Source of the DNA: Escherichia coli
GTDB taxonomy: Bacteria; Pseudomonadota; Gammaproteobacteria; Enterobacterales; Enterobacteriaceae
Assembly (NCBI RefSeq): GCF_024223415.1
Contig: NZ_CP100500.1
Reading direction: 5' to 3' (one strand)
Length of the DNA: 64,000 bases
The translations under genes were made by a program, and so were the position numbers. Shown here piece after piece: positions 3,478 to 28,905 of the stretch; position 1 is the first letter of the stretch; every line of letters begins with the position of its first letter. The notes under the pieces were generated by a model. The model was not told the origin of the DNA. It saw nothing but the letters and a program-made list of their open reading frames with translations, and did no database searches.

Positions 3478-3546
3478 AACAGGACCCTCCGTAAATTAAA
3501 CGGCTACAAAAAGCCCCTGACAGTGCAGGGGCGGGATTGATTTGAA

Positions 3547-4311
3547 TTAACGAGGTAAGGCTGGTGGAATGTATCTGCCGATGCGGTCTTCTATGGTCGG
3601 CAGAATGCACATGCTGTCGCTGAAGCGGTCATGCAACTGGTAAACCAGTTTAGAATCCATTTTTTCGAGAGCAGGCATTAACTGCGCCCGCCAGATTTCG
3701 TTGATGCGCCGGAAGTTATGACAGACGGCGCGGAGATTGTTGATGAACATTTCCTTCTCTGCGTCAGTGACTTCTGTCTGTGTTTTCTGAATACGCTTTG
3801 TGCTGCCATTCCGATAGAAGCGTTCCTGAGCAGCAACAGCCTCATCCACGGTTGGATAGCACCCTACGTAAACGCTCTTCTCTCCGTTCCATGCGTAGGC
3901 TCTGTACGGGTTGTATTTGCTCCGGTGATGGTAAACCATCTTCGGCAGACACTCCCTGTGTGGCGCCAGTATCGTGGAGGATTGCTGGTGCAGTTTGCGT
4001 TCGCACTCGATGAAGTATCGGCGGATCTGGCGGCCTTTTTCGTTGCGCTCCACCATCGCCAGTTCTTTGGCCGTGTCGAGGGTGAGGTGGTAGTCCTTAC
4101 AAAGAACATTTTTACGCTTTCCAGTTTTGGAAAACGTTACGATATAATCCTGATTTTCAACGAATTCATAGTCTGCAATTCGTGATGTAATCCACGCTGC
4201 AAACACTTTCCCTACCCCAAGGAATGCGTGCAGATCGCGAGCATTGCAGAGCAGGGTGGTTTCGTTGGCGATAGCGCCGTTGAAAACGGGGATGAGTTGA
4301 GTTGCCATCAC
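3547..4311 (-). CDS. Protein with AntA/AntB-type antirepressor N-terminal domain
   Basis: 254-aa ORF; N-terminal LIPVFNG ... LHAFLGVGKVFAAWITSRIADYEFVENQDY ... YHLTLDTAKELAMVERNEKGRQIRRYF resembles the AntA/AntB antirepressor domain. Confidence 0.55.
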   Translation of the reverse strand: MMATQLIPVFNGAIANETTLLCNARDLHAFLGVGKVFAAWITSRIADYEFVENQDYIVTFSKTGKRKNVLCKDYHLTLDTAKELAMVERNEKGRQIRRYFIECERKLHQQSSTILAPHRECLPKMVYHHRSKYNPYRAYAWNGEKSVYVGCYPTVDEAVAAQERFYRNGSTKRIQKTQTEVTDAEKEMFINNLRAVCHNFRRINEIWRAQLMPALEKMDSKLVYQLHDRFSDSMCILPTIEDRIGRYIPPALPR

Positions 4312-6562: not shown

Positions 6563-7486
6563 TTAACCCTCCAGCGCTTTTTCAGCAAGGGCTATCACGT
6601 CTGCGAGTTTATCGTCAGCGACTTCACCGAGTTTTCTGGCTCCCTGTTTTTCCAGAATGGCAATAGCTTCTGCCCGGTAACCGCCTTTTGCAAGCTGGAG
6701 GATCAACCCTTCGGCCTGTTTACGCAGTGCAGCAAAATCGGTCTGTTCGCCAGTATCTTCCACGGCATCACCACCAGTTTCGGTACCGCTTTTTGCTGCG
6801 TCTCTGCGTGCAAATTCTTCCTGCAGCTGAAGGTACTCAACACGGTTGATCTCGATATGGCCTTTTTTCAGCATCTCGTTCAACTTGCGTAAGGTGTGGA
6901 GTTCACTGGCTGCTGTGCCGGATACATTTTTGACGTAAAACGGCCCCGTGCGTTCTCCATCTTTGTTACTGGCCTTTTTCGGCTTAACTTCATCACGCCC
7001 ATCTGCAGGTGCATCAAGTAGCTGCTCGGCAAAAGCACGTCGCTCGCCGATAGTTGGCAGGTCGTCCCAGAACTTAAGAATGTTGCGGGACAGGTCCAGA
7101 AGAGCGGGTTTATGCAGTGCCCTGGCTCGTTTGACGCACTGCAATGTGCTGTCGAGAGCATCAATCTGAACTACTCGTTTATCACCTTCAGCATCACGGT
7201 AAGCAACAGCTCGTTGCAGCATGTCTTCAGTAACAGGGGTAGCTGACGGGTAGAAACCAGCCAGTGCGATAACGTCGCTGAACTCCAGATCATCCAGTGT
7301 CATTACCGCTTTATTTTCAGTTTCATCTGCTGTTTCGGTTGCTGTATCCCGACATTCCTGTACTTGTGAAATGGCGTCAGGATGCATAACAATACCTGAT
7401 GCCATTGTGCGGATAAGACGTTCAAGCAGCACATTATGTTGCGCCAGAAGTTGGTTATTAAGTTCGAGACTGGTTTCTAAGCTCAT
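6563..7486 (-). CDS. Hypothetical phage protein
   Basis: 307-aa ORF, tightly packed in the leftward operon (ends 1 bp before the next gene); no motif recognised. Confidence 0.5.
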
Positions 7487-7665
7487 ACTGTGGTCCTCGC
7501 TACAAGGAGAATGAAAGTGATGATCAGGCCAAGTGCAGTGGCAACGACCAGACCTGTCATCAAATCGAAGTGTTTACGGCGATAACGGAGAACATCGCGC
7601 CCCGTCAGTCGATGGATGTGTTCAGGTTTCATCGGTTGTATTCCTTTTTTCATATCGGGGAGCAC
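7483..7665 (-). CDS. Small hypothetical protein with C-terminal hydrophobic helix
   Basis: 60-aa ORF overlapping the start of the downstream gene by 4 bp; C-terminus LVVATALGLIITFILLVA. Confidence 0.35.
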   Translation of the reverse strand: MLPDMKKGIQPMKPEHIHRLTGRDVLRYRRKHFDLMTGLVVATALGLIITFILLVARTTV

Positions 7666-7748
7666 GCTGTTGCGAGTGCGCTTTCAGACATAAAAAAGCC
7701 CGTCACTTGCGGCGGGCAAAGACTACACACAGCAATTACATGGATGAT

Positions 7749-7943
7749 TCAGTTGGTATTGTGCGTACGTGGTACCACGAGGTTGAAGCGGACACGCCAG
7801 TGCGTTGCAATGGTATGCAGGAAAGCACCACATCTAGGGCAGTGCTCATAACATTCGTTGATTTGGTATCGTTTTGGCTTTGGTGTCTGAAGTTGTGTTT
7901 GGCAAGCAGGGCATTCACCTTTGAGCGGTTTATACGTTTTCAC
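7749..7943 (-). CDS. Small zinc-ribbon-like hypothetical protein
   Basis: 64-aa ORF with CPAC ... CPRC cysteine pairs. Confidence 0.35.
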   Translation of the reverse strand: MKTYKPLKGECPACQTQLQTPKPKRYQINECYEHCPRCGAFLHTIATHWRVRFNLVVPRTHNTN

Positions 7944-8224
7944 GCCGTTTCCTCATTCAGTTCACTTTGGTGGTTCGGCGGCTTCGACTTGTATCAGTAG
8001 ACAGTGCTTCGCCGCACCCCAAAGGGAACTTACTGACCCGTATTGCCGACATCCTGTCCCGCCACGGTCCCGACGCATGGTTTAGAGTCGCGCCGTTCGA
8101 CTTGATGAGGGATAAATTACTATGTTTATTGTATTACGTAAACCACAAATATGGTATTTATGGTTGCAAAAATACCATATTATTGATATTTAAGTTAATT
8201 TAGTTGGTAGACAATCGGGGCGGG

Positions 8225-8262
8225 CGGTATGGCGGGAGGGCTTTTTCGCCCTCTTTCTGGAT
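8225..8262. terminator. Hairpin GAGGGC-TTTTTC-GCCCTC with T-rich flank just downstream of the cI-like gene
   Basis: Inverted repeat read directly in gggagggctttttcgccctctttctgg. Confidence 0.4.
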
Positions 8263-8266
8263 GGGA

Positions 8267-8893
8267 TTATCTTTTGCGGCGGTAAATACGATGTTCAATC
8301 ATGACCCCTACGATCTGTAAGGGGACATCTGCACTTCGTAGCACGGGATAGTCGGGATTCAGGGGGACCAGTTCAAAATCATCAACGCCGATACCCAACG
8401 GGCGGTATTTTTTGAAAGTGGCCTCATACCCGTTGTTCTTTGCAACGACGAATTCGCCAGGCATGGGGCATAAATCCGGGTCAATTATTACAATATCGCC
8501 TTCCTTAAACTCCGGTTGCATACTGTCACCATCTATCCGCAGGGCGAAGCAGGACTCAGGTACGTCGGAATCCGCGAGAACGTATTCCATATTTCCATCC
8601 ATGTCCGTAGCGTCTTTTGCTTCCGTTAGCGCACCGGCCTGTACGTAACTGAGGATCGGGATGCGGCGGGTACTTATTTCCGCCAGGGGCATTATATTCC
8701 TGCCATTTAAAAGCCAGTCGGGACTGCATTTCAGTGCCTTTGAAAGCTCTATGATGTTGCGGGGCTTCCGGGTCTTTCCGCTTTCAATAGTCTCAATGGA
8801 TTGCTGGCTGACCCCCGCGATTGCTGCAACTTCTGTTTGTGTCATCCCGAGTTCTGTACGGCGTGCTTTAAAGCGTTCTGCAAGTGACATGGT
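8267..8893 (-). CDS. cI: cI-like prophage repressor (XRE-family HTH plus S24 LexA-like peptidase domain)
   Basis: HTH GMTQTEVAAIAGVSQQSIETIESGK and peptidase region LRIDGDSMQPEFKEGDIVIIDP; start taken at MSLAERF (AGGGGG RBS) rather than the ORF-track start at 8956; divergent from the cro-like gene. Confidence 0.85.
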   Translation of the reverse strand, partial: TMSLAERFKARRTELGMTQTEVAAIAGVSQQSIETIESGKTRKPRNIIELSKALKCSPDWLLNGRNIMPLAEISTRRIPILSYVQAGALTEAKDATDMDGNMEYVLADSDVPESCFALRIDGDSMQPEFKEGDIVIIDPDLCPMPGEFVVAKNNGYEATFKKYRPLGIGVDDFELVPLNPDYPVLRSADVPLQIVGVMIEHRIYRRKR

Positions 8894-9006
8894 GTACCCC
8901 CTGATTCCTGATTTTTTGCTCTCCCTTATTAATACAATTTTTGTTGTAGTTGACAAACATCATTTATTGTCGCTAAATACCACATAAATTGTAGGAGACA
9001 ATAATC
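8894..9006. promoter_or_regulatory. Divergent cI/cro intergenic control region (oR/pRM/pR analogue)
   Basis: 113-bp AT-rich spacer between divergent repressor genes containing ACCACA-type half-site repeats (taccacataaattgtagg) also seen left of cI. Confidence 0.5.
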
Positions 9007-9216
9007 ATGACACTTGCTACCCGAGTAAAAAACCAGCGTAAGGCTCTTGGCCTGACGCAGGTTATGCTGGCAGAACGCACAGGGATTAGCCAGCAGGCCA
9101 TTAACCGCATTGAAAGCGGCCTTATATCCCGTCCCCGTTATCTGCTGGAAATAGCTGTTGCCCTGAACTGCGACCCTAACTGGCTGTTGCATGGTACTCC
9201 CGCGGATAAGACGTAA
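9007..9216 (+). CDS. cro: Cro-like HTH repressor
   Basis: 69-aa ORF with XRE HTH (LGLTQVMLAERTGISQQAINRIESG), first rightward gene. Confidence 0.8.
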   Translation: MTLATRVKNQRKALGLTQVMLAERTGISQQAINRIESGLISRPRYLLEIAVALNCDPNWLLHGTPADKT

Positions 9217-9219
9217 CTT

Positions 9220-11364
9220 ATGGCCCAGATCAATCTCTCATACGGCCGGGAACTGGTAGACAACCTTCCTGTGCCCTGTACTGATGCCGATTTTAACCGG
9301 ACATTTAAGCGTGTTAAAAAGTGGGCTCGTGCTATCGGCGCAACCAAACAGGATACAAAAAGCCAGCTTAACGCCAAAAAAGCGCGTCTGCCCTACATCT
9401 GGCACGCAATGAAGGACGTCACCAAAGGTCGTAACGCTGCTAATGCGGGCAACCGTGATGTGCTCTTCATGGATATGGACGGCTGTAACGCGCCTGCATG
9501 GGGCGCTTTACGCGATGCGCTGGCCTGTTTCTCATGTTTCACCTATTCAACGCCAAGTCATCTGCACCCCACTGCAAACGGGGAACATCGCTGGCGTATC
9601 TGCCTGGAGCTGAGTCGCCAGGTCACGCCCGAAGAGTACAAGCGTCTTGGCCTTGCGGTTGAAAACTGGCTGATGGATTGTATCAGCCTGCTGGACGATT
9701 ACACCGTCAAGTGGGACCACAGCGTTTACAACCCGGACCATATGGTTTTTGCCCCTGATGAAAAGGCCATCTTTGAACGTTTTACCGGGGAACCTGTTGA
9801 CGTTGATATCCTGTTGGCCAGCGCACCGGAAGTTACCATCCCTGAAAAAGCATCTTCCACAGACCGCGATGATTTGTCACGCGCTGTCGAACTGAACGGC
9901 ATCAGTCAGGAAACTTTTGACGACCTGCGCGAAGTGATGTGGCATCCGGCTGTACTGGCAGACGCTGAGCCGGGTTGCGGTAAATACCATAGCTGGGCGG
10001 CGATGGGAAATCGTCTGGCATGGTTTAAGGGAACCGACTGGGAAGACGCAGCCCGTCAGCTTTGGGTCGACTGGTCGATAGCGGGTGGTGGCGATGGCAT
10101 CAGCGCTGAACATAAATGGGACAGTAACCAGCTTACCGCCGAACGAACCGGTTACCAGGCCATTTTCGCCCATGCGCAGAAAGCAGGGGTCGCTAACCCC
10201 GCGACCGACCGTATGCGCGGTTTTGTCGCCGGTGCGAATGACTTCGACGAGTTGCCACCGGAAAAACCGGAGCTGCCAAAGTCCAGACCGCACACAGGCG
10301 GCTACGGTAAGCCGGGAAAGTTCATCATTGAAGGGATGGTGCCGCACGGGGTGACCATGCTCTATGGAGCTTCGTCATCGTTCAAATCCTATGGCGTTAT
10401 CTCCATGCTCTGCCGTGTGGCGACGAAAACTCATCGCTGGGGCGGGCGTAACCTCAAAGGTGGCGCTGTTCTGTATGTTGCCGCTGAGGGTGGCAGCTCC
10501 GTTATGCCGCGTGTCGGCGCATGGGCGGATAAGTACAATGACGGTAAGCCACTGGATTTGTTCTACACCCTGCCACTGGCGGTTGATCTCTCTGTCCCCG
10601 CAAACGTCACAAAGATGGTAAACGAGATTAAGCGCATAGCGTACCACACCGGCGAACCTGTCCGGCTTGTGGCCGTCGACACGCTGTCGCAGTCCATGAT
10701 GCAGGGCGAGGAAAACAGCGCCAGTGATGTGGCAAAATTCATGGCGGGCGCAACCAGGGTGTTCACCGAAACGGGCGCAGCGGTGATTATCGTTCACCAC
10801 AGCGGCAAAGACAGCAGTAAGGGGATGCGTGGCTCTTCTGCTGCCTTTGCTAACGCCGATGCGGTCATTCGCGTGGAACGCATCGGCGACGCGGTGAACC
10901 TGATTAACGAGAAACAGCGTACCGGTCCGGTACAGCCGACCCGCGGTTACATGGTACCGACAGTGCAGCTTCCTGACGACGTTATCGCGGCTAACGAAAC
11001 GTACGATGATGAGTATACCAGCACTGAAGGGGAAGTATATGACCCTGTAAGGCTTACCACCGAGCGCGTGTTTGAAGATGCACCAATGGCGGAGATCACC
11101 CCACTGCTGGTGGATAAGGGCGACGGGAATACCAAAGGCAGCAGCGATGAATCCTGGGTATGGGAAAAGCTGGAGGCCTCCGGCGGCAGCATCAACCGTT
11201 CTGCGCTTCGCGAGTTATGGAAGGATGAAACCGATAAAAGTACCGGTCAGTTACGTGCGGTTCTGGGGCGCATGAAAGAGAAGTATTACATCGTTGAGCG
11301 CGACGGCGTAATCAGGGATCCGCTATGCAATGGCGTACCACCTGGAGGGGATGAAATTGCTTAA
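9220..11364 (+). CDS. Replicative primase-helicase (N-terminal primase-like region, C-terminal RecA-fold AAA_25/RepA-like helicase)
   Basis: 714-aa ORF; C-terminal Walker-type region with LVAVDTLSQS and IIVHHSGKD motifs typical of AAA_25/DnaB-like helicases. Confidence 0.7.
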   Translation: MAQINLSYGRELVDNLPVPCTDADFNRTFKRVKKWARAIGATKQDTKSQLNAKKARLPYIWHAMKDVTKGRNAANAGNRDVLFMDMDGCNAPAWGALRDALACFSCFTYSTPSHLHPTANGEHRWRICLELSRQVTPEEYKRLGLAVENWLMDCISLLDDYTVKWDHSVYNPDHMVFAPDEKAIFERFTGEPVDVDILLASAPEVTIPEKASSTDRDDLSRAVELNGISQETFDDLREVMWHPAVLADAEPGCGKYHSWAAMGNRLAWFKGTDWEDAARQLWVDWSIAGGGDGISAEHKWDSNQLTAERTGYQAIFAHAQKAGVANPATDRMRGFVAGANDFDELPPEKPELPKSRPHTGGYGKPGKFIIEGMVPHGVTMLYGASSSFKSYGVISMLCRVATKTHRWGGRNLKGGAVLYVAAEGGSSVMPRVGAWADKYNDGKPLDLFYTLPLAVDLSVPANVTKMVNEIKRIAYHTGEPVRLVAVDTLSQSMMQGEENSASDVAKFMAGATRVFTETGAAVIIVHHSGKDSSKGMRGSSAAFANADAVIRVERIGDAVNLINEKQRTGPVQPTRGYMVPTVQLPDDVIAANETYDDEYTSTEGEVYDPVRLTTERVFEDAPMAEITPLLVDKGDGNTKGSSDESWVWEKLEASGGSINRSALRELWKDETDKSTGQLRAVLGRMKEKYYIVERDGVIRDPLCNGVPPGGDEIA

Positions 11365-28152: not shown

Positions 28153-28905
28153 ATGCCAACACCAAATCCTCTGGCACCGGTGAAAGGGGCCGGGACCACA
28201 CTGTGGGTTTATAAGGGGAACGGTGACCCTTATGCGAATCCGCTTTCAGACAATGACTGGTCGCGTCTGGCTAAAGTTAAAGACCTGACGCCCGGCGAAC
28301 TGACCGCTGAGTCCTATGACGACAGTTATCTCGATGATGAAGATGCGGACTGGGCCGCGACCGGACAGGGGCAGAAATCCGCCGGAGATACCAGCTTCAC
28401 GCTGGCGTGGATGCCCGGAGAGCAGGGGCAGCAGGCGCTGCTGGCGTGGTTTAATGAAGGTGATACCCGTGCCTATAAAATCCGCTTCCCGAACGGCACG
28501 GTCGATGTGTTCCGCGGCTGGGTCAGCAGCATCGGTAAGGCGGTGACAGCGAAGGAAGTGATCACCCGCACGGTGAAAGTCACTAACGTGGGTAAACCTT
28601 CTGTAGCGGAAGAACGCAGCAAAATTACGCCGGTCAGTGCGATTAAGGTGACGCCGACATCCGGTACGGTGGCAAAAGGGAAAACAACCACCCTGACGGT
28701 TTCTTTTGAGCCGGAAAGTGCAACCGACAAGACGTTCAGAGCGGTTTCCGCCGATCCGTCGAAAGCCACCATTAGTGTGAAAGATATGACAATTACGGTA
28801 AACGGCGTGGCGACAGGTAAGGTGCAGATCCCTGTGGTGAGCGGAAATGGTCAGTTCGCCGCAGTGGCTGAAGTCACCGTTACTGAAGCGGGCGCTGCAG
28901 GGTAA
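28153..28905 (+). CDS. V: Major tail tube protein (lambda gpV-like) with C-terminal Ig-like domain
   Basis: [13 protein letters not shown] ... DPYANPLSD ... closely resembles lambda V; start ATG 28153. Confidence 0.9.

What the first reader, a model, noticed from the sequence alone, without database searches (positions are those of the whole stretch)
7950..9006. Shared ACCACA-type operator-like repeats on both sides of the cI-like gene
The region left of cI (about 8100..8200; accacaaatatggta, tggttgcaaaaatacca) and the cI/cro spacer (ataccacataaattgtagg) carry related partially palindromic motifs, consistent with oL and oR operator sets. The small ORFs between cI and the 307-aa gene (7483..7943) occupy the place where lambda has N, but neither resembles N.
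Basis: partly seen in the sequence, partly recalled or inferred. Interest (0 to 1): 0.3.

Follow-up and report, generated by a model that had tools for sequence, protein, structure and literature searches.

The report
434-type phage operators plus put RNA
The repeats on both sides of this E. coli prophage's repressor gene are real left and right operator sets built like those of phage 434, and the "missing N protein" is explained by an HK022-type antiterminator RNA, so the region is an ordinary mix of well-known phage modules.

Summary
The real motif is the phage 434 type 14-mer, AC(A/C)A-N6-T(G/T)GT, not "ACCACA".

- **Right set:** three sites (OR3 8934-8947, OR2 8957-8970, OR1 8979-8992) are interleaved with pR and pRM at exactly the spacing of phage 434.
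- **Left set:** three sites (OL1 8119-8132, OL2 8142-8155, OL3 8174-8187) overlap a 434-like pL.
- **Third quoted string:** "tggttgcaaaaatacca" is only the variable OL2-OL3 spacer plus neighbouring half-sites.

Support:
- The closest solved structures to both regulators are 434 Cro and 434 repressor.
- A matrix built only from 434's annotated operators ranks four of the sites within the top 14 of about 64,000 positions.
- Relatives about 85% identical keep all six sites while the flanks diverge.
- A 62%-identity clade has switched all six sites to ACAG-N6-CTGT together with its recognition helix.

No N is needed. The pL transcript starts at about 8106 and immediately encodes an HK022-type putL antiterminator RNA (8031-8103). 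Then come a 64-aa zinc-ribbon ORF and an intrinsic terminator.

In passing, that terminator carries a 24-nt copy of the processed-RprA seed. It is conserved across many prophages and plasmids and appears undescribed.

Binding and transcript starts are inferred, not measured.

The parts
8119..8132 (.). OL1, ACTATGTTTATTGT (16-mer 8118-8133). It lies in the pL spacer and abuts the -10.
   Evidence: Ranked first of 63,987 positions with the 434-derived matrix. It occupies the same position as annotated 434 oL1. It reads ACAATTTGAGTTGT in the ~85% relatives.
8142..8155 (.). OL2, ACCACAAATATGGT. It lies 9 nt from OL1, as in 434.
   Evidence: Conservation to the window is 0.91 across 39 distinct relatives. 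It ranks 59th with the 434 matrix because of its ACCA half-sites.
8174..8187 (.). OL3, ACCATATTATTGAT. It lies 18 nt from OL2, against 17 nt in 434.
   Evidence: conservation 0.83. It scores weakly with the 434 matrix, ranking 321st.
8156..8173 (.). OL2-OL3 spacer.
   Evidence: The centre of the spacer varies among relatives. The 34-bp palindrome (I4) arises from the facing half-sites TGGTA and TACCA.
8114..8142 (-). Predicted pL. The -35 is TTTACG (8142..8137), the spacer is 17 nt, the -10 is TAATTT (8119..8114), and the start is at about 8106.
   Evidence: 434 reads TTTACA-17-TAATTT at the aligned position; its record annotates the pL -10 one base upstream (GTAATT) and marks the start of the left transcript. 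The boundary between mosaic modules falls at 8104/8105. This is inferred by homology. The generic promoter scan did not call it.
8031..8103 (-). putL-type antiterminator RNA: two stem-loops and the -10-like AACCAT at 8080..8075.
   Evidence: 82% identity over 72-74 nt to HK022/HK75/O276 putL, annotated as antiterminator RNA. The covariance model scores 89 bits, E=1.5e-17. 10 of 13 pairs show compensatory changes, and 92.6% of cells are paired against 51% or less for slid controls.
7749..7943 (-). 64-aa zinc-ribbon ORF (CxxC...CxxC), the first gene of the pL operon. It occupies the position of HK022 nun or lambda N.
   Evidence: Sub-threshold zinc-ribbon Pfam hits. There are three homologues down to 76% identity with all Cys conserved. 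It is not annotated by PGAP in relatives. It shows no similarity to N.
7692..7737 (-). RprA-like module: seed AAUUGCUGUGUGUAGUCUUUGCCC (7737..7714), terminator hairpin (7717..7698) and U6. It is the likely tL1 read through by put-modified RNA polymerase.
   Evidence: Rfam RprA scores 48.9 bits against a gathering threshold of 70. It is 24/24 identical to K-12 rprA. See also the fold and the conservation in 32 contexts.
8236..8253 (-). GC hairpin just downstream of the cI stop codon. It is probably a cI 3' end or insulator structure between cI and pL.
   Evidence: Fold gives -12.6 kcal/mol, z=-2.4. The hairpin position is kept in relatives, and the 62% clade has a canonical terminator there. 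It has no U-tract on the cI strand.
8267..8890 (-). cI-like repressor, 207 aa. It has a 434-type HTH (recognition helix SQQSIET) and a LexA-like S24 domain (QAG cleavage site, GDSM Ser, FKK Lys).
   Evidence: Pfam HTH_3 and Peptidase_S24. The best PDB matches are 434 Cro, 434 repressor and lambda repressor.
8928..8956 (-). Predicted pRM. The -35 is TTGTCA (8956..8951), the spacer is 17 nt, and the -10 is ATTAAT (8933..8928).
   Evidence: The positions are homologous to the annotated 434 pRM. This is inferred.
8934..8947 (.). OR3, ACAATTTTTGTTGT.
   Evidence: Ranked second with the 434 matrix. It is 100% conserved in 35 distinct relatives. It aligns with 434 OR3.
8957..8970 (.). OR2, ACATCATTTATTGT, inside the pR spacer.
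   Evidence: Ranked seventh. It aligns with 434 OR2. The outer bases are conserved and the centre is variable.
8979..8992 (.). OR1, ACCACATAAATTGT. It lies immediately after the pR -10.
   Evidence: Ranked fourteenth. It aligns with 434 OR1.
8950..8978 (+). Predicted pR. The -35 is TTGACA (8950-8955), the spacer is 17 nt, and the -10 is CTAAAT (8973-8978).
   Evidence: The spacing is identical to the annotated 434 pR, TTGACA-17-GAAAAT. Both hexamers are 100% conserved in relatives.
9007..9216 (+). cro-like gene, 69 aa, with a 434 Cro-type HTH.
   Evidence: Pfam HTH_3. The best PDB hit is 434 Cro, E=6.6e-19.

Best explanation
This is the lysis-lysogeny switch of an E. coli prophage. It is built from a phage 434-family immunity cassette (about 8105-9216) joined to an HK022-type putL leader.

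**Right side.** Dimers of the 207-aa repressor, and of the 69-aa Cro, bind 14-bp dyads AC(A/C)A-N6-T(G/T)GT.
- OR1 and OR2 cover the -10/start and the spacer of pR, so a bound repressor shuts off cro and the replication genes.
- By analogy with 434, repressor at OR2 supports pRM.
- OR3 overlaps the pRM -10 and gives negative autoregulation and the Cro target.

**Left side.** OL1-OL3 cover pL. After DNA damage, RecA-stimulated self-cleavage at the QAG site of the S24 domain releases both promoters.

**Left transcript.** It starts at about 8106 and immediately folds into the put RNA. That RNA binds the elongating RNA polymerase and lets it read through the intrinsic terminator at 7692-7717 into the recombination and replication genes. 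No N-like protein is therefore needed.

**Shown here:**
- the sequence features and their positions;
- homology to 434 repressor and Cro, and to putL;
- covariation in the put stems;
- co-variation of the operators with the recognition helix across clades.

**Inferred:**
- actual binding and the affinity order of the sites;
- the transcription start points;
- activation of pRM;
- put activity on this terminator.
For: - **Proteins.** The closest solved structures are 434 Cro and 434 repressor, and the QQS recognition-helix core is retained. An S24 domain is present.
- **OR architecture.** 434 reads ACAAGAAAAACTGT-AT-TTGACA-A-ACAAGATACATTGT-AT-GAAAAT-ACAAGAAAGTTTGT. The window reads ACAATTTTTGTTGT-AG-TTGACA-A-ACATCATTTATTGT-CG-CTAAAT-ACCACATAAATTGT. 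The spacing is the same at every element.
- **OL architecture.** The spacings are 9 and 18 nt, against 9 and 17 in 434. pL is TTTACG-17-TAATTT, against TTTACA-17-TAATTT.
- **Independent scan.** The 434-only matrix puts four sites in the top 14 of 63,987 positions.
- **Conservation.** OR3, the -35 and the -10 are 1.0 conserved, against 0.34 for the cI leader. Changes within operators fall in the central bases, which are not contacted in 434 (PMC1636474).
- **Covariation.** The 62% clade has ACAG-N6-CTGT in 11 of 12 half-sites at the same six positions, together with helix QQSWQS instead of QQSIE(T/S).
- **Module boundary.** The mosaic junction at 8104/8105 coincides with the predicted pL start, as the imm434/lambda junction does.
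- **put.** Its biology is described in PMC9378689.
- **No N-type features.** There is no boxA near pL or pR, and no N-like protein.
Against: - There are no binding or transcript data.
- The generic sigma-70 scan did not call pR, pRM or pL. Their hexamers are weak, as they are in 434.
- Only 5 of 12 half-sites are the canonical ACAA, and 4 are ACCA. OL2 and OL3 score poorly with the 434 matrix, so specificity differs from 434 and OL3 may bind weakly.
- No second put (putR) was found in 64 kb, unlike HK022.
- The single-sequence fold of the put region is no better than shuffled sequence, z=0.56. Support for the structure comes from covariation only.
Confidence: 0.85

Rival explanations
1. The shared motifs are chance similarities in AT-rich intergenic DNA and have no regulatory role.
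For: The self-derived pattern has 3 other hits in the window, and 4 of 100 shuffles reach 8 hits.
Against: An independent 434-derived matrix ranks the sites 1, 2, 7 and 14 of 63,987. The spacing matches 434 exactly. The sites are conserved against diverged flanks. A related clade shows a coordinated switch at all six sites.
Confidence: 0.02
2. Only the cI/cro spacer sites are functional. The left sites are vestigial, or serve something else, such as a cI 3' hairpin formed by the 34-bp palindrome 8148-8181.
For: OL2 and OL3 score low with the 434 matrix. The window's OL1 has an ACTA half-site. The palindrome arms are 93% complementary (I4). The cI terminator is not canonical.
Against: The OL half-sites are conserved while the palindrome centre varies. 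In the 62% clade the three left sites changed to ACAG together with the right sites. The left sites overlap a pL that matches 434's. A strong put element directly downstream implies an active, regulated promoter.
Confidence: 0.06
3. One of the small ORFs, the 64-aa zinc-ribbon or the 49-aa membrane peptide, is a new protein antiterminator that replaces N.
For: They sit where N sits. The zinc-ribbon ORF is conserved with its cysteines intact. Its function is unknown.
Against: A full-length putL homologue already accounts for antitermination without a protein (PMC9378689). There is no boxA or nut-like site. The same put element precedes unrelated first genes in other phages. The 49-aa gene lies downstream of the terminator.
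Confidence: 0.05

Closest known systems
Phage 434 immunity region: cI, cro, OR1-3, OL1-3, pR, pRM, pL (OL657226.1)
   Same: - The repressor and Cro DNA-binding domains are the closest to 434's among solved structures.
- There are three 14-bp dyads on each side.
- The OR elements are interleaved at identical spacing.
- pL has a near-identical -35 and an identical TAATTT hexamer at the aligned position.
- The left module boundary falls at the pL start.
- cI carries a leader with an SD downstream of pRM.

   Different: - The half-sites are AC(A/C)A rather than the almost invariant ACAA. Only 5 of 12 are ACAA and 4 are ACCA.
- The recognition helix is SQQSIET, against TQQSIEQ in 434.
- The DNA-binding domain aligns with 434's but is clearly diverged from it (alignment).
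- There is no hex gene between cI and OL.
- The OL2-OL3 spacer is 18 nt, not 17.
- Downstream of pL there is put, not nutL/N.
- The switch sits in a phage with non-lambda replication and recombination genes (DUF2800 exonuclease, Gp2.5-like SSB, AAA_25/VapE-type primase-helicase).
- It is probably heteroimmune to 434, but this was not tested.
HK022 putL antiterminator RNA (also HK75, O276, HK639)
   Same: - 82% identity over about 73 nt.
- Two stem-loops supported by covariation.
- It lies directly after the pL start.
- The putL-specific -10-like NANNAT is present.
- It is followed by a first gene and then terminator(s).
(PMC9378689)
   Different: - Stem II is shorter by two nucleotides and has compensatory changes.
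- No putR was detected anywhere in the 64-kb window.
- The first gene is a zinc-ribbon ORF, not nun.
- It is combined with a 434-type rather than an HK022-type repressor and operator set.
Lambda OL/OR with N-nut antitermination
   Same: The overall logic is shared: divergent cI/cro, tripartite operators on both sides, an S24 self-cleaving repressor, and a pL operon needing terminator readthrough.
   Different: - The operator family is different (17-bp lambda sites).
- There is no N homologue, boxA or boxB.
- The cI mRNA has a leader.
Enterobacter phage CobraSix-type immunity (the 62% clade, L052-L082)
   Same: The architecture and spacing are the same, and the repressor is 60-63% identical. 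It is the closest repressor in any isolated phage genome.
   Different: The operators are ACAG-N6-CTGT, the recognition helix is (R/T)QQSWQS, and a canonical terminator follows cI.
RprA sRNA (Rfam RF00034), processed 47-nt form
   Same: The 24-nt stretch AAUUGCUGUGUGUAGUCUUUGCCC is identical to K-12 rprA and begins exactly where processed RprA begins. It is followed by a terminator hairpin and a U-tract (PMC9262595).
   Different: - The 5' half is not conserved.
- It scores 48.9 bits against a gathering threshold of 70.
- It lies in the 3' UTR of a phage gene as the first pL terminator.
- It has no recognisable own promoter.
- It is also found on plasmids.

Membership tests
Phage 434-type immunity region | Repressor with a 434-like HTH N-terminal domain and a LexA-like S24 C-terminal domain | tested here: met
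   Pfam HTH_3 and Peptidase_S24. PDB matches to 434 Cro (2.6e-15), 434 repressor (9.5e-15) and lambda repressor CTD. The QAG, GDSM and FKK motifs were read in the translation.
Phage 434-type immunity region | Divergently transcribed small Cro with a 434 Cro-like HTH | tested here: met
   434 Cro is the best PDB hit, E=6.6e-19, over residues 2-68.
Phage 434-type immunity region | Three 14-bp dyad operators in the cI/cro spacer, interleaved with pR and pRM | tested here: met
   Element-by-element identical spacing with the annotated 434 OR. Matrix ranks 2, 7 and 14.
Phage 434-type immunity region | Three operators left of cI overlapping pL | tested here: met
   OL1-3 have 9 and 18 nt spacers, against 9 and 17 in 434, and a homologous pL. 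They are conserved in relatives.
Phage 434-type immunity region | Outer 4+4 bases ACAA/TTGT conserved with a single exception (434 specificity, PMC1636474) | tested here: not met
   The half-sites are ACAA x5, ACCA x4, ACAT, ACTA and ATCA. It is therefore the same architecture family but a different or relaxed specificity, and should not be called imm434.
Phage 434-type immunity region | Repressor and Cro physically bind these sites and repress pL and pR | not testable with these tools
   Needs EMSA or footprinting and reporter assays.
HK022-type put antiterminator RNA | An RNA of about 70 nt with two stem-loops and the conserved put sequence | tested here: met
   blastn gives 82% identity to annotated putL. 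The covariance model scores 89 bits. 92.6% of cells are paired, covariation is 0.598 against 0.166 or less for slid controls, and 10 of 13 pairs have compensatory changes.
HK022-type put antiterminator RNA | putL lies just downstream of the pL start and carries the -10-like NANNAT | tested here: met
   put begins 3-4 nt after the predicted start at about 8106. AACCAT lies at 8080..8075 (PMC9378689). The start site is inferred.
HK022-type put antiterminator RNA | A second element, putR, downstream of pR | tested here: not met
   With filters off, the covariance-model search of the whole window gives a next-best hit of 15.7 bits inside a structural ORF.
HK022-type put antiterminator RNA | Protein-independent readthrough of terminators that depends on the RNA polymerase beta' zinc-binding domain | not testable with these tools
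   A suitable intrinsic terminator is present downstream at 7692-7717.
Lambda N/nut antitermination | An N-like arginine-rich protein, and boxA/boxB sites after pL and pR | tested here: not met
   There is no Pfam or PHROG match to N for the 64-aa or 49-aa ORFs. No GCTCTTWA occurs within 6.5-12 kb.
RprA sRNA (RF00034) | Reaches the Rfam gathering score over the full model | tested here: not met
   48.9 bits in the window and 55-60 bits in relatives, against a threshold of 70. The true rprA scores 118.5.
RprA sRNA (RF00034) | The conserved 3' seed and terminator of processed RprA | tested here: met
   24/24 identity with K-12 rprA from the first base of the 47-nt processed form, followed by a hairpin and U6 (PMC9262595).

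The most novel reading that the evidence does not exclude
The first terminator of the pL operon (7692-7737, minus strand) may double as a mobile-element copy of processed RprA.

Its 22-24-nt single-stranded seed is identical to the chromosomal sRNA. The seed is invariant in 30 of 32 distinct prophage and plasmid contexts, while the hairpin and the upstream gene change.

If transcripts ending there bind Hfq, induced prophages (and plasmids carrying the module) would inject an RprA mimic into the host's RprA regulon. That regulon covers biofilm, conjugation-control and nitrate-response targets. Alternatively, rprA itself may descend from such a phage terminator module.
Probability: 0.3. Interest if true: 0.6.

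Novelty: new member of a known kind. Interest (0 to 1): 0.3.

Why it matters
For the finding as given, the value is mainly annotation.
- It gives exact coordinates for six operators, three promoters and a put RNA in a prophage family whose 630-bp region between the early-left genes and the repressor gene is left blank by standard pipelines.
- It shows that a 434-type switch has diversified into at least three operator specificities (ACAA, AC(A/C)A, ACAG) with matching recognition-helix changes. That is a natural series for studying how repressor specificity and heteroimmunity evolve.
- It documents that put-type RNA antitermination is shuffled as a cassette, exactly at the pL start, among prophages with unrelated immunity regions.

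The side observation of an RprA-seed terminator module on prophages and plasmids is the only part that could be new biology.

Tried and rejected
- **Promoter and terminator scan of 7400-9300.** It called none of pR, pRM or pL, and only one plus-strand hairpin. It is too strict for these 434-like weak hexamers, so I relied on homology to the annotated 434 record instead.
- **An alternative pL.** I first considered the -10 TAAATA at 8155-8160. I rejected it because no -35 lies upstream, and because 434, the 85% clade and the 62% clade all keep a TA..TT -10 abutting OL1.
- **Single-sequence folding of the put region.** It is uninformative, z=0.56.
- **Search for a second put.** Negative. The 15.7-bit hit at 28486-28548 lies inside a 260-aa ORF.
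- **Megablast of the immunity region against isolated phages.** Only the left 346 nt matched.
- **Complete E. coli genomes.** They hold only a 76%-identical version, or just the left 205 nt.
- **boxA search.** Negative near the switch.
- **The relatives' alternative leader with boxA-like CGCTCTTTAACAA.** I suspected N-type antitermination, but the first ORF downstream is not N-like. I make no such claim.
- **Literature searches for a prophage RprA homologue.** They found nothing.
- **Plus-strand ORFs in the leader (for example 7967-8203, 78 aa).** I treat these as spurious, because they overlap put and OL on the wrong strand.
Full report
**Setting.** The window is E. coli chromosome carrying a prophage. 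Its right flank is the core yphG-glyA-hmpA-glnB region, present in 5425 of 5426 complete genomes. The finding covers the prophage's immunity region.
- The repressor gene is 8267-8890 on the minus strand. It encodes 207 aa with HTH_3 and Peptidase_S24 domains.
- The cro-like gene is 9007-9216 on the plus strand, 69 aa, HTH_3.
- To the left lie a 64-aa ORF, a terminator, a 49-aa ORF, a 307-aa ORF, a DUF2800 exonuclease and a Gp2.5-like SSB.
- To the right lies a primase-helicase (AAA_25 domain; the relatives' homologue is annotated VapE).

**Observation.** The three quoted strings are present at 8142-8156, 8161-8177 and 8976-8994. The repeat finder links 8142-8156 to 8979-8993 at 80% identity.

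Reading both intergenic regions shows a longer dyad, TAC(A/C)A-N6-T(G/T)GTA.
- **Self-derived pattern.** With one mismatch or fewer it has 8 hits in 64 kb, and five of them lie in the two clusters beside the repressor gene. That pattern came from the window itself, so I sought independent tests.
- **Independent matrix.** A matrix built only from phage 434's six annotated operators ranks the window's sites 1 (OL1), 2 (OR3), 7 (OR2), 14 (OR1), 59 (OL2) and 321 (OL3) of 63,987 positions.

**What it is: a 434-family switch.** The best solved-structure matches for both proteins are 434 Cro and the 434 repressor DNA-binding domain. The recognition helices are SQQSIET for the repressor, against TQQSIEQ in 434. 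For Cro they are SQQAINR, against KQQSIQL.

The phage 434 genome record (OL657226.1) annotates OR1-3, OL1-3, pR, pRM, pL and the start points of the pRM and pL transcripts. In the window's orientation the two OR regions read:

| | OR3 | | -35 | | OR2 | | -10 | OR1 |
|---|---|---|---|---|---|---|---|---|
| 434 | ACAAGAAAAACTGT | AT | TTGACA | A | ACAAGATACATTGT | AT | GAAAAT | ACAAGAAAGTTTGT |
| window | ACAATTTTTGTTGT | AG | TTGACA | A | ACATCATTTATTGT | CG | CTAAAT | ACCACATAAATTGT |

Every element has the same length and order.

On the left, 434 has OL1-9 nt-OL2-17 nt-OL3, and TTTACA-17-TAATTT lies where its pL is annotated. The window has OL1 (8119-8132)-9 nt-OL2 (8142-8155)-18 nt-OL3 (8174-8187) with TTTACG-17-TAATTT. 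By homology, the pL start is at about 8106, pRM is TTGTCA-17-ATTAAT (8956..8928), and pR is 8950-8978. The literature describes 434 as having six 14-bp sites with outer ACAA/TTGT conserved except for one base (PMC1636474).

**Comparative evidence.** A scan of viral contigs with the repressor returned 80 loci in three identity classes: 100%, about 85% and about 62%.
- **The 85% class.** OR3, the pR -35 and the pR -10 are identical to the window in all 35 distinct sequences. The cI leader is only 0.34 conserved. Differences inside operators fall in the central bases, which are not contacted in 434. The OL half-sites are kept, while the middle of the OL2-OL3 spacer varies freely. The 34-bp palindrome there is a by-product of the facing half-sites TGGTA and TACCA.
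- **The 62% class.** The nearest isolated phage is Enterobacter phage CobraSix. Its six equivalent positions all read ACAG-N6-CTGT, in 11 of 12 half-sites. The recognition helix is (R/T)QQSWQS. A simultaneous change on both sides of the gene, together with the helix, is the strongest available evidence that both sets are read by the repressor.

**Difference from 434.** Only 5 of 12 half-sites are ACAA, and 4 are ACCA. The ACCA sites are conserved at the same places in the 85% class (OR1 left, OL2 both halves, OL3 left). Specificity at position 3 is therefore different or relaxed. This should be called a 434-family switch, not imm434. From my own knowledge of the 434 co-crystal structures, residues 27 and 33 (Thr and Gln in 434, Ser and Thr here) lie at the DNA interface. 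Linking them to position 3 is conjecture.

**The place of N.** The sequence left of 8104 is nearly 100% identical in E. coli prophages with unrelated repressors. The module boundary therefore sits at the pL start, as in imm434/lambda hybrids.

The first 73 nt of the predicted transcript (8103..8031) match HK022, HK75 and O276 putL at 82% identity. Those records annotate it as antiterminator RNA. Further support:
- An alignment of 14 distinct putL and putR sequences gives two stem-loops, with compensatory changes in 10 of 13 pairs.
- 92.6% of cells are paired, against 51% or less when partners are slid.
- The covariation score is 0.598, against 0.166 or less.
- A covariance model scores the window element at 89 bits.
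- It carries the putL-specific -10-like AACCAT (PMC9378689).

put RNA binds the beta' zinc-binding domain of RNA polymerase and suppresses intrinsic and Rho-dependent terminators without any phage protein (PMC9378689).

Downstream lie a conserved 64-aa zinc-ribbon ORF and an intrinsic terminator at 7692-7717. After that come the recombination and replication genes. This is the same pL-putL-first gene-terminator layout as HK75. No boxA lies near the switch, no N-like protein is present, and no putR was found.

**Mechanism.**
- *Inferred from 434 and lambda:* repressor dimers at OR1 and OR2 block pR and support pRM. OR3 limits pRM. OL1-3 block pL. Cro uses the same sites in the opposite order.
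- *Read from the sequence:* the motifs for RecA-stimulated self-cleavage, QAG with GDSM and FKK.
- *Inferred from HK022:* put-modified polymerase reads through the 7692-7717 terminator.

None of these steps is measured here.

**Side observation.** The terminator module matches Rfam RprA below threshold, at 48.9 bits against 70.
- The stretch AATTGCTGTGTGTAGTCTTTGCCC is 24/24 identical to K-12 rprA.
- It begins exactly at the 5' end of the 47-nt processed RprA, which is active in vivo (PMC9262595).
- The 22-nt core is unchanged in 30 of 32 distinct contexts from about 55 prophage and plasmid loci. The hairpin sequence and the upstream gene differ among them.
- It occurs in 178 of 5426 E. coli genomes, including 27 places on plasmids.
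- No variant reaches the Rfam threshold, and I found no paper describing it.

Whether it acts as an sRNA is untested.

**Verdict.** The region is a new member of well-known kinds: a 434-family operator and promoter set, plus an HK022-type putL. Interest is low to moderate.

Noticed in passing
window 7692-7737 (minus strand); also L083 2515-2561, L084 3009-3060, and L005-L049 at about 3500-4200: The first pL terminator carries a 24-nt stretch identical to the seed of processed RprA (AAUUGCUGUGUGUAGUCUUUGCCC), followed by its own hairpin and U-tract. The 22-nt core is invariant in 30 of 32 prophage and plasmid contexts while the hairpins and upstream genes vary. All copies score below the Rfam gathering score, so pipelines do not annotate them. 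No paper describing it was found.
   Followed up: partly
window 8188-8210: An AT-rich block (ATTTAAGTTAATTTAGTTGGTAG) just right of OL3 is 0.83 conserved among 39 distinct relatives, while the next 55 bp are only 0.42 conserved. Its function is unknown. It could be an architectural-protein site or part of the cI 3' end.
   Followed up: no
window 7953-7970 and 8019-8036: An 18-nt inverted repeat, 83% complementary, lies in the pL leader between put and the zinc-ribbon ORF. Its 3' arm abuts the Shine-Dalgarno GAGGA, so it might gate translation. All available copies are identical, so covariation cannot be assessed.
   Followed up: no
window 8236-8253: A GC hairpin (-12.6 kcal/mol, z=-2.4) lies right after the cI stop codon, with no U-tract on the cI strand but a T-rich run on the plus strand. 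The 62% clade has a canonical bidirectional terminator at this position.
   Followed up: partly
L007-L017, L020 and others, just downstream of pL (window-equivalent position below 8105): Relatives with the same operator set carry a different leader in place of put, with a boxA-like CGCTCTTTAACAA right after pL. The first downstream ORF (170 aa in L010) is not N-like. Antitermination cassettes therefore appear to be swapped at the pL start.
   Followed up: partly
window 7749-7943 (minus strand): A 64-aa CxxC...CxxC zinc-ribbon ORF with a good SD is not annotated by PGAP in related complete genomes. Homologues down to 76% identity keep all the cysteines.
   Followed up: partly
L083 1516-1694: The plasmid that carries an RprA-like module (pABWA45_1) also has a sok antitoxin RNA match above the Rfam threshold about 0.8 kb away. 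This is incidental.
   Followed up: no
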